The position numbers were made by a program, and so were the translations under genes. A stretch of DNA of 64,000 nucleotides, from positions 25,054,401-25,118,400 of the forward strand of contig CM120641.1 of NCBI GenBank assembly GCA_051362555.1. Reading direction: 5' to 3'. The stretch's first letter is position 1. Every line of letters begins with the position of its first letter. Positions 17,610 to 23,034 of this stretch are shown here, in pieces. Source of the DNA: Lingula anatina (taxonomy: Eukaryota > Animalia > Brachiopoda). The notes under the pieces are model-generated. The model searched no databases, had not been told where the DNA came from, and saw only the letters and a program-made list of their open reading frames with translations.

Positions 17610-17991
17610 GTGAGTGTATTTTTATTATTTTTTTGTTTGAATATTTTTATGTTGTTGGAAACTAATGCCATATATGCATGTATAAGTGTGTGATTACTTT
17701 TTTATTTAAAGTTTAAAAGATATATGTAAGCTTCCTAAAAAAAAAAGCATTCAGGTTAATAGTAGTGTCAGGTTATAGGTCTACTTTTTTATAAAATGTA
17801 TGATAGTTACAGGAGATGGAATTTGGTAAAATATAATTTCATGGAATCAATCCATACATTTAGCATTTCATAAACATGGTTATTGTAATAATAATTTAGC
17901 ATTTTATGAGTGTTTATATATGCATGCAGTTAAGTGTTGCATATTTCATTTTGATCTTGAAATATTTTCCCATCATGTTGGTAATTTCCAG

Positions 17992-18211
17992 GTTGTAATC
18001 AGAGTGACCTCAGAAAATGCATATCCTCCAGTGTTTAACCAGTCAGTTTACAGATTCACACTGGACAGAATACAGTTGTACAACCATCCTGAGCAGGGGC
18101 ACATAAATTCCAATATGACTGTCATGGCAACAGATGATGATGATCAGGGCATGTGCAGCAGTTCTGTGTCCAATGGAAATGGAGAAATTAACTACGCTAT
18201 TTCAGTTCAAG
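17992..18211 (+). CDS. Cadherin exon (VVIRVTSENAYPPVFNQ...ATDDD...ISVQ)
   Basis: tttccag acceptor, aag|gtggtt donor, phase 0/1. Confidence 0.82.
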
Positions 18212-19099
18212 GTGGTTATTAGATTCAAATGTCTTATTCAGTACTGAAATTTATTTGAATTGTTACTAAAACTAATTAATACACTTTAAAACCAGAACCA
18301 CTATCGGGCTTGAAAAATTATTAAAACTACATAAAAGTTTACATAAATTACATAACTACAATAAACGTTAACTACTTCAACAAAGTACATCAACCCGTAT
18401 GTTAATGAATTGCAACACTTAGATACAGGTAGCAATATAACTAATTGCAGCTGTTCAAAATTCCCATTTACTAAGCGCAAATGTTTAGAAACTAAATGAA
18501 GATCATGTACGCAAAATGTGTAATGCAAATGTAAGAAGCCCCTTCTGCCCATATGAGGGACAGGAGGGTGGGAAAATCTTCGACGCTTATGCTTAAGCCG
18601 ATTTTAATTGAAGCAAAATGGGCTCGAGCGCCCTAACACGCTGTCCAGCTTTAACGGCTGCCAGGCTCTAACTGCCAATTATTTTGAATTCACCACGTGA
18701 GCTGGCTGACCAATCGGGGGCCTGCGCCTTAAGCGTCCCTCTAGTGGTGGTTTTAAATACCATTCCCAAAGGGAAAGGGTACTTAAAACCAGAACCACTA
18801 TCGGGCTTGAAAAATTATTAAAACTACATAAAAGTTTACATAAATTACATAACTACAATAAACGTTAACTACTTCAACAAAGTACATCAACCCGTATGTT
18901 AATGAATTGCAACACTTAGATACAGGTAGCAATATAACTAATTGCAGCTGTTCAAAATTCCCAACCCAGAGTATAAGTAGGTGAGTGAAAATGAAATAGA
19001 CGTCATTGCACTTAGAAACTGTCATATTGCTAGACATGTGACAGTGGGGCAGTCACAGGTTGTCCAATAATTTAAAATTTCCATAATTTAACAACAGGT

Positions 19100-20067
19100 T
19101 CAAACTGTCTTCAGCGCTCTCAGCATTACATCGTATTTCATATCCGCCGAAGGTTTGATGTATTGGAATACCGCGTCGCTAGACCAGTCTCCCATGGCCT
19201 TCACCATCGCTAAAGGAGTACCGATGGATAGAAGCCACGTAGCTCCTCCCCTGCGGAGACTGTGAGTATTGTACATCGCGGTGGAAAGTCCGATCCCTCG
19301 AAGTGACCGTGCAAGTTTTTGGCGAAAGCCTGCCGATGTGAGGAGAGTGGTCCCTCCGTTCTTAGAAGTGGCAAGGAGCGGCGCAGATTCCGGGACGTCC
19401 ATTGACATCTTCAGAAAATTCGTCAGCGCTGTTGTGGGGCACAAAGGGCTGCCGTGACGGAAGGGGAGTGTAACGATATGGGCTCTCTGGCCGTACTGGT
19501 TGTTTTTGGATTTGGTTACTCTTAGGGTGCATCCTCGTTTTGTAAATGTCAAGTCGCGACGGCATACAGATAGGCCGCTATCTGTCTGAGACCTGGCCGT
19601 AATATTGCTAACTCTGAGCATCCCAAAGAAAGCGATCAGACAAGCTGCCCACGTCTGCGCTTGTTCTAAATCATTCAGGTTGAGGAATGATCGTAGGCTT
19701 AAAAGCTGTGGTGGTAGGATGGGTGCTTTCTGAGAGCCCGGATCTCCTTTGTGTCTCTTTATACCACCTAGAGTCGTCTTCAGCTCCCAGGAACACAGAG
19801 GGTTAGGAAGTCCGAAATCCGTGTGGATGATCCGGACGATGTTTAGGTACTGCCGAAGAGATGAGAATGCGCACGATCGTGCCCGGTAAGCAGCGTATCT
19901 GCAGATGTTGGCGGGGGATATAGGAATCGGTTTACAGTTGATTTCCTCACAGAACTTGATATAAGCGCGTAGGTGTGATCTATAAGTTGATTTAGTAGAG
20001 GCCGAGAAAAGTTGAGCTCTCCAGAAGTTCACCTCCTCATCTAGTTGTTGTCTCAGTATATCAGAGC
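19100..20067 (-). CDS. Tyrosine recombinase (YR) of the retrotransposon; no ATG start, probably a spliced 3' exon
   Basis: Catalytic motifs FFGMLRVSN, KSKNNQ, HSLRRGGAT, GDWSSDAVFQY. Frame is open from ~20098 with no upstream Met; CAG acceptor at 20068. Confidence 0.92.
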
Positions 20068-21689
20068 CTGGGATAAAGAAAGGAAAAAGAGGAATTAGTC
20101 ATATGGTCCTGCAGAAAATACACTGGCGGCTGTCTGTGTAAGCTTAAATACCAGTGATGGACTAATTCGAGAAAACGAGAGCAATGTTCTGGCTCATGCA
20201 TTCGTGACACGGAATCGGCAATTTTATTTTCTTCCCCGGCTATATGGATCGCATAAATTGAAAAGTCATATTTCAGCGATAGAAGGGATAATTCCTTAAG
20301 GAGGTTGTTGCAGGCGGTGTTGGGCGAAGCCCCTTTGTTTAAAATGTTCATGGCCACTTCACTGTCCGTGTAAACAATGACTCGTTGTGCCTTCCATAGC
20401 GGGGACCACCTGTACGCCGCCAGGACGATGGATGCTAATTCCTTGACATTAATGTGTTCATCCCCTAACTGGTGAGGAGCGTCCTGTATCCAGTTAGTGT
20501 AAAACCAATCTCCGCAGTAGAACGCTCCACCTGCTGTGATGCTGGAGTCGGTATACACCTGTTGAATCGGTCGCTCGTCCCATATTAGTTTTGTATTGTT
20601 TCCCGTGATAAGCCACCTGCTCCACCAAATGAGGTCCTTACGTAATGGATTTAGCTTGCACTTATGACTGGCTCTTTTCAGCAAAGCTATGGAGTTAAAT
20701 ATACTTCGCACGTGTGTTTTACCCCATGGGATGACGTTCGAAGCCCAGACTAACTTCCCGGCCAGGGATTCAAGCTGACGTCTGCTGGCGCGCACGCGGC
20801 TTTGAAATGTTTGGATTAAGCAGAGTAAGTCGCGAACTTTTTGTTCCTCTAGAGAGAGTACACCTTCAACAGTATCTATGACGATGCCTAGAAACGTTAG
20901 GCGAGTCGTTGGGTCACAGACTTTTTTCCAGTTGATGCGAAAACCCAGGAGTCTCAAAAGACTGATTAATGTGCTATAAGCTAACTTGCATCGTTCAAAT
21001 GTCTCGCCTATAACCAAAAAGTCATCTAAATAAACTACGACGTGGAAGCCTCGTCTCTCCATCATCCGCTTTACCGCTTGTGTTAGCCGGTGGAAAATTT
21101 CGGGGCTTTTGCGGGCCCCGAATGGGAGTCTCGTGTCCACTAAAGTCGTTGGCTTAGTTGATCCAGCAAAGTTCCATTTCAGCCCAGTAAGGGTAAACTG
21201 GGAAGGGTGTAACGCGACAGTTCTATAAGCTGAGTGGAGGTCAACTTTGCTTAGGAAATATCCTGGTTTAATCTTATCCAGGGCCGACCGAATTTTCTCG
21301 TATCTAAATGTTTGTTTTGTTGCGTAATCGTTTACTGCTGCCCCTTCAGGTCTGCTGTAATCATGAATAAGACGGACGCCGCCGTCTGTTTTTGGCACTG
21401 CGGAAATTGCACTAATTATCGTAGGCTGGAGTTCTGGTTCAATATAGTGTCCCTCCTCTATTTCTGTCTTCATTTGAATCTCAACTTTATGCTTGAAAGC
21501 TTCGCAAGTGGCGGATCTACTGTTTTCTACTTCAGTTCTATTGATGCAATCCAGATCTAAATCGTCGACTATTCGGAAGCCCTCCCGAATACCGTTAATT
21601 ATGAAATCATAGTCTGTATCTCCTTGTAGTTCCTTTTCCCATTTTTCAATGTTTTGGTGCAGCGGAGATTTTGCCGCGACGTGCGTTTG
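20061..21689 (-). CDS. Reverse transcriptase/RNase H (pol), in frame with gag behind a single TGA
   Basis: RLIHDYS, KVDLHSAY, LPFGARKSP, YLDDF, YTDSS, HINVKEL, YTDS, IADSVSR. The frame stays open for 72 codons upstream of the ATG at 21473, up to the gag stop. Confidence 0.93.
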   Translation of the reverse strand, partial: QTHVAAKSPLHQNIEKWEKELQGDTDYDFIINGIREGFRIVDDLDLDCINRTEVENSRSATCEAFKHKVEIQMKTEIEEGHYIEPELQPTIISAISAVPKTDGGVRLIHDYSRPEGAAVNDYATKQTFRYEKIRSALDKIKPGYFLSKVDLHSAYRTVALHPSQFTLTGLKWNFAGSTKPTTLVDTRLPFGARKSPEIFHRLTQAVKRMMERRGFHVVVYLDDFLVIGETFERCKLAYSTLISLLRLLGFRINWKKVCDPTTRLTFLGIVIDTVEGVLSLEEQKVRDLLCLIQTFQSRVRASRRQLESLAGKLVWASNVIPWGKTHVRSIFNSIALLKRASHKCKLNPLRKDLIWWSRWLITGNNTKLIWDERPIQQVYTDSSITAGGAFYCGDWFYTNWIQDAPHQLGDEHINVKELASIVLAAYRWSPLWKAQRVIVYTDSEVAMNILNKGASPNTACNNLLKELSLLSLKYDFSIYAIHIAGEENKIADSVSRMHEPEHCSRFLELVHHWYLSLHRQPPVYFLQDHMTNSSFSFLYPRL

Positions 21690-22799
21690 TCAATGTGAAG
21701 GATTTCTCGCTGTGGCACTGGTCCCTTGCTGCTTGTGCGTGTATTCTCCATGAGTAGTACTGGAACAGGCTACACACACGTGAGCATAACGGCAGTTCGG
21801 GAAGGAGCAGCCCTGGCGACCGTTAAATTTCATACAAATTGGTCGGCCCGTCGCTGTGTCCAATTTTGTTTGCTTCCCTCTGGTTGTTGGCTGGGTTGGA
21901 TTCGGTTTTAACAACACCTGCATGAGAAAGGGGCTGTCGGTTCCCCATGGAAATCCCATCTCGCTCTGAGATTTCCTATACTCTGCGTCGTAGCGTAAGA
22001 CTGATTGCCAATTAAAAGATTGCCCCATGCAGGCCACTTTTGTCACGTAGCTGGTGTAATCCATGACTGTTTGAATGTCCGCGCCGTCGTCGGCCACCAT
22101 TTCCCTTAGTATTTTCATCGACGCTTCTGTGTATTGAAGTGGAGTGATGCGCTCCAGAGGGAGTTTTCTGTCGGTGAGGGAAAGCTGTAAATCGCCAATG
22201 CGGACTGGTGTATCAGGTTTTGCTTCAAATTTGTCTGAGAACATTACATAGCTGCGTATGTCGCGATGCTTGTTAAGTTTTCTTTGTCTATCTGGAGGTG
22301 AAAAAGGATCGAAAATCCCCTTACCGTCATGATCTCTGTGTTGACCTCTGTTTGGTTGATTCCCATTCCCGTTCCCAATGTCTAGTAGTTGGCATAACCT
22401 GGTATAATCGAGGTCCCCGGTGTTTCCTGCTTCCGTTTGCGCGCTGGGAGCCGCCATATTAGGGGACCCGGATGTCCCTGGCAAGATGGCTGGGGCCTCG
22501 TCTTGGGTTTTCTTGTCACCAGTTTCGGGAGTAAAGGTTGCAGCAGATACACTGTTAGACGTACCTGGACTCTGATTGTTCTGTGGCTGAGCACCATGTT
22601 CTTGCTGTAGGACAAGCACAGCGTCTTGGAGAAGGAGAATCTGAGCCAGCGGTAGCGATTTGCCGAAATGTCTTTGTATGAGTGGCTCTGTGAGTTTCTT
22701 GCAACTCCTGAGTGAGAAGAATCCTGCATCCTTTAAGATTTCTACCGTATCTTCCGAGAGCTCGTTAGCCTCCACCCAAGATTGGAATTCTTCAGCCAT
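21690..22799 (-). CDS. Gag-like ORF1 with N-terminal SAM-like helical domain and C-terminal CCCH-type zinc finger
   Basis: 369-aa ORF starting 22 nt after repeat A1; WQSVLRYDAEYR motif; ICMKFNGRQGCSFPNCRYAHVCVAC..H. Confidence 0.88.
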   Translation of the reverse strand: MAEEFQSWVEANELSEDTVEILKDAGFFSLRSCKKLTEPLIQRHFGKSLPLAQILLLQDAVLVLQQEHGAQPQNNQSPGTSNSVSAATFTPETGDKKTQDEAPAILPGTSGSPNMAAPSAQTEAGNTGDLDYTRLCQLLDIGNGNGNQPNRGQHRDHDGKGIFDPFSPPDRQRKLNKHRDIRSYVMFSDKFEAKPDTPVRIGDLQLSLTDRKLPLERITPLQYTEASMKILREMVADDGADIQTVMDYTSYVTKVACMGQSFNWQSVLRYDAEYRKSQSEMGFPWGTDSPFLMQVLLKPNPTQPTTRGKQTKLDTATGRPICMKFNGRQGCSFPNCRYAHVCVACSSTTHGEYTHKQQGTSATARNPSH

Positions 22800-22919
22800 T
22801 GTCAGGGAGACAAAAAAACAAAAATCTTCGACGCTTATGCTTAAGCCGATTTTAATTGAAGCAAAATGGGCTCGAGCGCCCTAACACGCTGTCCAGCTTT
22901 AACGGCTGCCAGGCTCTAA

Positions 22920-23034
22920 CTGCCAATTATTTTGAATTCACCACGTGAGCTGGCTGACCAATCGGGGGCCTGCGCCTTAAGCGTCCCTCTAGTGGTGGTT
23001 TTAAATACCATTCCCAAAGGGAAAGGGTACTTAA
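22920..23034 (-). promoter_or_regulatory. Candidate cis-elements in repeat A (also in A2)
   Basis: tatttaaa, CTCF-like ccactagagggac, CCAAT box (gaccaatcg), E-box cacgtg; motif matches only. Confidence 0.3.

What the first reader, a model, noticed from the sequence alone, without database searches (positions are those of the whole stretch)
20060..22330. Retrotransposon recombinase appears to be made by an in-frame splice that fuses the Gag N-terminus to the YR
Seen: the YR frame has no ATG at its start (the track's 'M' is a GTG). Just upstream on the - strand is a textbook 3' splice site: tgactaat (branch A ~20095), tcctctttttcctttctttatcc, CAG|G (AG at 20069-20068). Inside gag is a strong donor, GACG|GTAAGG (exon ends 22325, after Asp158, phase 1). 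Joining them gives G+GC=Gly and reads straight into SDILRQQLDEEVNFWRAQ..., removing a 2257-nt intron (Gag core plus all of RT/RNaseH) and giving a ~480-aa Gag(1-158)-YR protein. Established: DIRS/Ngaro elements integrate via a YR, and I do not know of a settled account of how their YR ORF is expressed. Inference: a subgenomic spliced mRNA, analogous to retroviral env or foamy-virus pol, gives the recombinase the same N-terminal module as Gag, possibly for co-packaging.
Basis: partly seen in the sequence, partly recalled or inferred. Interest (0 to 1): 0.85.

Follow-up and report, generated by a model that had tools for sequence, protein, structure and literature searches.

The report
Ngaro retrotransposon splices Gag onto recombinase
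This intact jumping gene carries matching RNA-splicing signals, kept in most of its distant relatives, that likely cut out its reverse transcriptase and join its start-less DNA-inserting enzyme to the front of its Gag protein; this would replace the ribosome slip proposed in print, but the spliced RNA itself was not seen.

Summary
The element is an intact Ngaro-type YR retrotransposon (23034-18286, minus strand). Its acceptor (AG 20069-20068) scores best of 310 AGs in the element; the donor after 22325 is second of 214 GTs; both are phase 1, giving 480 aa. The first in-frame ATG of YR is Met149. In relatives, the best acceptor just before YR helix 1 is phase 1 in 52 of 56 dereplicated loci, and the best gag donor is phase 1 in 23 of 26, against 11 of 26 in pol. 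The -1 frameshift proposed in print fails: YR is +1 to pol here, frames vary (+1 27, -1 22, 0 5), and 0 of 20 -1 overlaps hold a slippery heptamer, against 11 of 13 at gag/pol. The shared exon carries a SAM-like fold; one RefSeq model has SAM-linker-YR. No junction read was listed in 7 shallow RNA runs (inconclusive). A second phase-1 donor (22565) competes. Co-packaging is untested. This scan noted the same idea before on other DNA (e1-8585023, e1-9946051).

The parts
22821..23034 (-). Split direct repeat A1 (214 nt), starts with TTAA at the left junction
   Evidence: 100% identical to 18573-18786; junction read
21690..22799 (-). gag-like ORF1, 369 aa, TGA stop; SAM-like N-terminal domain, linker, conserved core with C-terminal Cys/His motif
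   Evidence: 51% identity over the N-terminal region to P0121
22596..22799 (-). SAM-like five-helix domain (Gag residues about 1-68), inside predicted exon 1
   Evidence: pLDDT 92; Foldseek top hits SAM domains, prob 0.99 but E 0.19; VIA Z 8.9, rmsd 2.4, 68 aligned to CASKIN2 SAM; Pfam SAM_1 weak in 4 of 20 aligned relatives
22319..22327 (-). Predicted 5' splice site, GT at 22324-22323, phase 1 after Asp158; the conserved position just before the Gag core
   Evidence: 21 codons before the core Asp, as in L008, L009, L018, L082
22559..22567 (-). Rival phase-1 5' splice site, GT at 22564-22563, after Gag residue 78 (would give 400 aa)
   Evidence: top-scoring GT of the element; position not shared by most relatives
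20068..22324 (-). Predicted 2257-nt GT-AG intron holding Gag core and RT/RNase H
   Evidence: 2203-2476 nt in 29 relatives; not seen in RNA
20061..21689 (-). pol ORF2, 542 aa stop-to-stop, RT + RNase H; opens in frame directly after the gag TGA (likely stop readthrough)
   Evidence: RVT_1 E 2.6e-17, RNase_H E 0.02; frame 0 adjacency
20068..20101 (-). Branch-point-like motif, pyrimidine tract and CAG acceptor, phase 1 to YR
19100..20067 (-). Tyrosine recombinase exon, 321 aa from Ser at 20065; R151, K187, H268, R271, W294, Y302 invariant; no ATG before 19621
18783..18963 (-). Repeat B1 (181 nt), overlaps A2 by TTAA
18573..18786 (-). Repeat A2
18286..18466 (-). Repeat B2, ends with TTAA at the right junction

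Best explanation
This is an intact Ngaro-type retrotransposon whose recombinase frame has no usable start codon and is likely translated from a spliced subgenomic mRNA that would join Gag residues 1-158 (SAM-like domain plus linker) to the whole recombinase as a 480-aa protein. Shown: the signals, their phases, the missing ATG and their conservation in relatives at 30-47% YR identity. Inferred: (1) one transcript from repeat A1 stays partly unspliced, serving as genome and as mRNA for Gag and, by likely readthrough of the gag TGA, Gag-Pol; (2) a fraction is spliced 22325 to 20067, dropping the Gag core and RT/RNase H; (3) the shared N-terminal module likely ties YR to Gag assemblies or sets its oligomeric state (weakest step, about 0.4). 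Odds: acceptor used by splicing about 0.88; this donor the main partner about 0.75.
For: Acceptor rank 1 of 310, both top donors of 214 in gag and phase 1, first YR ATG at Met149. Best AG in -75..+15 nt of YR helix 1 is phase 1 in 74 of 78 loci, 52 of 56 dereplicated; median score 6.4 vs 0.8 in 1109 control tiles; rank 1 of all sense AGs in 34 of 56; control tiles phase 1 in 173 of 446 (YR) and 209 of 663 (pol). Best GT in the whole gag is phase 1 in 23 of 26 vs 11 of 26 in pol and 14 of 26 in YR; it clusters 4-54 codons before the Gag core; combined p 6e-6 against synonymous recoding. The signal survives an amino-acid change (Ser rather than Gly at the donor in L025/L026). pol/YR frame changes at least 18 times on a 54-row quick tree while acceptor phase stays. 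RefSeq model XP_066298120.1 (Branchiostoma lanceolatum, 449 aa) is SAM 2-64, Gag-like to 119, YR 130-448.
Against: No joint was listed in 7 of 9 RNA runs laid; depth under about 8 and a 3-read threshold make this inconclusive. Reads cover the intron side of the acceptor (4 reads, 2 starts, at 20099 in X9), so unspliced RNA exists, as the genome RNA must. Donor scores are modest: against synonymous recoding only 10 of 26 reach p<0.1, lowest 0.02; the 80-codon donor region was chosen after seeing the data. 16 of 57 elements have an in-frame ATG at or before helix 1. Only 1 of 22 long YR proteins is a SAM-YR fusion by my profiles and 0 of 150 SAM hits carry a full YR; RefSeq models are predictions and I could not see their RNA support. 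Splice matrices are recalled approximations. Loci are related, so p-values overstate independence.
Confidence: 0.8

Rival explanations
1. YR is made by a programmed ribosomal frameshift from pol in the short pol/YR overlap, as a Gag-Pol-YR polyprotein (the proposal of Poulter and Butler 2015, -1 frame).
For: Quoted in PMC13003380. The window has a 35-nt, U-rich overlap; 42 of 54 elements overlap. A +1 slip needs no XXXYYYZ heptamer and was not scanned for.
Against: YR is +1 to pol here; across 54 elements +1 27, -1 22, 0 5; 12 have no overlap (10 of these also lack an ATG); 0 of 20 -1 overlaps hold a slippery heptamer while 11 of 13 -1 gag/pol junctions do. Both frames occur in elements with an intact Pol HMS motif. 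Some frame labels may come from decayed copies.
Confidence: 0.05
2. Splicing uses the same acceptor but mainly the upstream donor at 22565, giving SAM(1-78)-YR of 400 aa, or both donors alternately.
For: Top donor score in the element, phase 1.
Against: In relatives the best or second donor sits just before the Gag core, where 22325 lies; a donor straight after SAM is seen only in a few (L001, L009).
Confidence: 0.1
3. YR is translated on its own from a near-cognate start (GTG 20032) or an internal transcript, and the splice-like signals are by-products.
For: GTG at 20032 is in frame; 16 of 57 elements have an in-frame ATG near helix 1.
Against: The GTG column holds GTG in 9, ATG in 1, TTG in 1 and other codons in 46 of 57; starting there removes conserved helix-1 residues; it does not explain phase-locked donor and acceptor.
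Confidence: 0.05

Closest known systems
Ngaro-like superfamily, order DIRS (YR retrotransposons)
   Same: A1-ORFs-B1-A2-B2 repeats, gag / RT-RNase H / YR order, little overlap, no methyltransferase hit (definitions from passages of PMC3783388, PMC3266345, PMC9210276).
   Different: Published proposal for YR expression is a programmed -1 frameshift (quoted in PMC13003380); the evidence here points to a conserved gag-donor / YR-acceptor splice. A SAM-like Gag N-terminus was not mentioned in the passages I read.
MLV SD' RNA / P50 protein
   Same: Donor inside gag spliced over pol, giving Gag N-terminus fused in frame to an integration-enzyme part; P50 is packaged (passages of PMC10496198).
   Different: P50 has only the last 116 aa of integrase and is accessory; here the splice would be the only route to the complete, essential recombinase.
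Foamy virus spliced pol mRNA
   Same: [quoted passage not shown]
   Different: Foamy Pol is a separate protein with no Gag part and needs RNA-guided packaging; here the Gag N-terminus would be retained.

Membership tests
Ngaro-like YR retrotransposon | Split direct repeats in A1 ... B1 A2 B2 order | tested here: met
   A 214 nt and B 181 nt, each 100% identical, B1/A2 overlapping by TTAA
Ngaro-like YR retrotransposon | Three ORFs gag, RT/RNase H, YR in that order with little overlap | tested here: met
   35-nt pol/YR overlap
Ngaro-like YR retrotransposon | YR with R-(K)-H-R-(H/W)-Y catalytic residues | tested here: met
   R151, K187, H268, R271, W294, Y302 invariant in 31 sequences; the catalytic role of these positions is recalled knowledge
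Ngaro-like YR retrotransposon | No methyltransferase domain after RNase H | tested here: met
   No MT family at E<=0.1 in the 542-aa pol; about 45 aa left after the RNase H hits
Ngaro-like YR retrotransposon | RT/RH phylogeny groups with named Ngaro elements rather than PAT-like | not tested
   No named reference elements were fetched
DIRS-like superfamily | Inverted terminal repeats plus internal complementary region | tested here: not met
   Only a 39-nt, 74% inverted match arising from a palindrome inside repeat A
Major-class (GT-AG) spliceosomal intron | GT donor, branch point, pyrimidine tract, YAG acceptor | tested here: met
Major-class (GT-AG) spliceosomal intron | Removed from RNA | tested here: inconclusive
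   No joints listed in 7 runs at depth under about 8
SAM domain | Five-helix SAM fold | tested here: met
   Five helices, pLDDT 92; the first 29 VIA rows are SAM-type or SAM-containing entries, best Z 8.9, rmsd 2.4, 68 aligned; Z is modest for a small helical domain
SAM domain | Self-association or polymer formation | not testable with these tools
   Needs a biochemical test

The most novel reading that the evidence does not exclude
Across animal Ngaro retrotransposons the recombinase is universally made as a spliced Gag(N)-YR fusion, while Pol is made by interchangeable readthrough or -1 frameshifting, so that Gag, Gag-Pol and Gag-YR share one oligomerising N-terminal module (SAM or coiled coil) that co-assembles them in a particle.
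Probability: 0.4. Interest if true: 0.8.

Novelty: new variant of a known kind. Interest (0 to 1): 0.62.

Why it matters
How YR retrotransposons express their integrating enzyme is untested; the one proposal I found in print is a -1 frameshift. A conserved splice redefines the real recombinase (about 400-650 aa with a Gag-derived head, not the 320-aa ORF), explains why the YR ORF lacks an ATG, makes splicing a control point between genome RNA and integrase mRNA, and gives a one-PCR test in any species with expressed Ngaro copies.

Tried and rejected
Own genome not held, so no within-species copies. No RNA holder listed by index. X2 depth falls from 7.1 (19922-20057) to 0.08 (20058-20193) in one orientation, but only 1 of its reads was partial, so I do not count it. 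Viral contigs: 18 pattern matches, none related. No fetched locus was a spliced form. The CAYATG motif 30-40 nt before the acceptor looked like an RNA signal but follows the Pol frame (His-Met-Ser), so rejected as cis element. SAM homodimer prediction: no verdict, score 0.00, no evidence either way. Careful tree did not finish; quick tree used. Rows dropped: 8 of 86 loci lacked a scorable YR start (L021, L046, L060, L061, L070, L071, L076, L085); 49 of 78 had no complete gag of 200 aa or more; 3 of 57 had no pol C-terminal hit. Goodwin and Poulter 2004 and Poulter and Butler 2015 are not held. Literature searches listed no paper reporting a Gag-YR splice; Repbase reports, subscription papers and supplements were not seen and could hold it.

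Full report
What is there. The minus strand 23034-18286 holds an intact YR retrotransposon: repeat A (214 nt) and repeat B (181 nt) in A1-ORFs-B1-A2-B2 order, each pair 100% identical, with TTAA at both ends and at the B1/A2 overlap. ORFs are gag (22799-21690, 369 aa), pol (21689-20061, RVT_1 E 2.6e-17, weak RNase H) and YR (frame 20098-19100; Phage_integrase E 2.7e-4). This meets the structural definition of Ngaro-like elements given in passages of PMC3783388, PMC3266345 and PMC9210276; RT phylogeny against named elements was not tested. Identical repeats and open frames point to a recent insertion (inference).

Observation. All coordinates hold. With recalled splice matrices the acceptor ranks 1 of 310 sense AGs in the element; the two best of 214 GTs are both in gag and both phase 1 (22564, score 5.7; 22324, score 4.9). 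The first ATG in the YR frame is at 19621, Met149, two residues before invariant Arg151, so an ATG-started YR would lack its N-terminal half.

Relatives. YR homologues from the protein search often begin with Phe/Leu/Ser-rich stretches ending in a small residue plus Gly, Asp or Ala, as a translated pyrimidine tract and phase-1 acceptor would (by eye). I fetched 86 loci (80 metagenome, 6 genome contigs), 30-47% identical in YR; 78 could be anchored on YR helix 1. The best AG within -75..+15 nt is phase 1 in 74 of 78 loci and 52 of 56 dereplicated at 70% identity; median score 6.4 against 0.8 for 1109 equal tiles in pol and YR; it is the best AG of the available element in 34 of 56; control tiles are phase 1 in 173 of 446 and 209 of 663. 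At 50% clustering it is 31 of 33. Twenty-nine relatives (26 dereplicated) had a gag of 200 aa or more. The best GT in the whole gag is phase 1 in 23 of 26, against 11 of 26 for pol and 14 of 26 for YR. In an 80-codon region before the Gag core, chosen after seeing the data, it is phase 1 in 25 of 26 against 105 of 225 tiles. Against synonymous recoding the combined p is 6e-6, but only 10 of 26 reach p<0.1 singly. The window's 22325 donor lies 21 codons before the core Asp, as in L008, L009, L018 and L082, which favours it over 22565. Donor and acceptor are frame-compatible in 27 of 29, with introns of 2203-2476 nt.

The published alternative. PMC13003380 (passages) quotes Poulter and Butler 2015: YR overlaps RT/RH in the -1 frame and is probably translated by programmed frameshift. 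Here YR is +1 to pol. Across 54 elements the frames are +1 in 27, -1 in 22, 0 in 5; 12 have no overlap; 0 of 20 -1 overlaps carry an XXXYYYZ heptamer. The same scan finds a heptamer (mostly A AAA AAC) at 11 of 13 -1 gag/pol junctions, and in all 12 frame-0 elements, the window included, pol opens right after the gag stop. So recoding signals are detectable where they exist and absent at pol/YR. The pol/YR frame needs 18 changes on a quick 54-row tree, some from decayed copies. PMC3783388 already notes that YR may be in frame or frameshifted in fungal Ngaro. A GTG start is not conserved: 9 of 57. Against my reading, 16 of 57 elements do have an in-frame ATG at or before helix 1.

The shared exon. 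Gag 1-68 folds as five helices (pLDDT 92) that match SAM domains (Foldseek prob 0.99 but E 0.19; VIA Z 8.9, rmsd 2.4). My SAM profile hits 18 of the 26 dereplicated gags upstream of the donor; one more is cut by its contig end and 7 have another head, several charged and heptad-like by eye. That SAM domains and coiled coils often oligomerise is recalled knowledge; co-packaging is inference only.

Protein databases. Among 22 YR proteins of 413 aa or more, P0122 = XP_066298120.1 of Branchiostoma lanceolatum is SAM (2-64), Gag-like to 119, YR (130-448). P0125 = XP_019616155.1 has by eye a Gag-like coiled head before YR but was not scored by my profiles. The other 20 are Pol-YR, chimeric or unrelated models. 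Of 150 SAM hits, 45 carry the Gag core and 1 a YR fragment in a chimeric model. These are gene models, not RNA proof.

RNA. Seven of nine same-species runs were laid, each read to 6-30%. Reads are few, mostly 90-99% alike (other copies), and over YR mainly in the orientation expected for element-sense RNA in X1-X4. No joint passed the 3-read threshold. Four X9 reads cover 20099 on the intron side. The test is inconclusive.

Comparison. Works like MLV SD'/P50 (donor in gag, fusion to part of integrase; PMC10496198 passages) more than like foamy pol (separate protein; PMC7828637 passages). Also read as passages without finding the splice: PMC9341512, PMC7192593, PMC6681497 (plus its Background section), PMC8547959, PMC9940879, PMC4157794. 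Seven searches listed no report of a Gag-YR splice; the two key Poulter papers, Repbase reports and supplements were not seen. This scan's earlier notes e1-8585023 and e1-9946051 state the same idea on other genomes; they are not independent support, and they led me to look for the frameshift proposal.

Verdict. Known family, likely unreported expression mechanism, strong comparative support, no direct RNA proof. Confidence 0.8; interest 0.62.

Noticed in passing
window 21680-21700 (-) and 26 related loci: gag-to-pol recoding comes in two interchangeable forms: -1 frame with a slippery heptamer (11 of 13, mostly A AAA AAC) or in-frame pol directly after the gag stop (12 of 12; TGA followed by C in 7, TAG followed by G in 4, TGA followed by A in 1), as expected for readthrough.
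   Followed up: partly
window 17830-18213 and about 23190 onward (+): The element sits antisense in an intron of a host gene whose exons show cadherin-like motifs by eye (label recalled; Pfam gave no hit at E<=0.1 on two frames); the antisense orientation hides its strong splice sites from the host transcript.
   Followed up: partly
window 23034-23031, 18786-18783, 18289-18286 (-): TTAA at both element ends and at the B1/A2 junction, consistent with recombination of a circle junction into a TTAA target.
   Followed up: no
L081-L086: Ngaro elements with spliceosomal signals lie in contigs labelled as bacterial MAGs; likely eukaryotic host DNA in those bins. L081 clusters with metagenome locus L014.
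   Followed up: no
L014, L074, L007, L019, L029, L084, L086: Contigs are circularly permuted or show the next gag or YR after or before the element: tandem copies, collapsed repeats or circular intermediates.
   Followed up: no
window 20106-20098 (-) and relatives: A His-Met-Ser/Thr motif near the Pol C-terminus is widely conserved and overlaps the branch-point region.
   Followed up: partly
window 22291 and 21917 (-): Two further strong acceptor-like sites inside gag (scores 7.2 and 7.5); role unknown.
   Followed up: no
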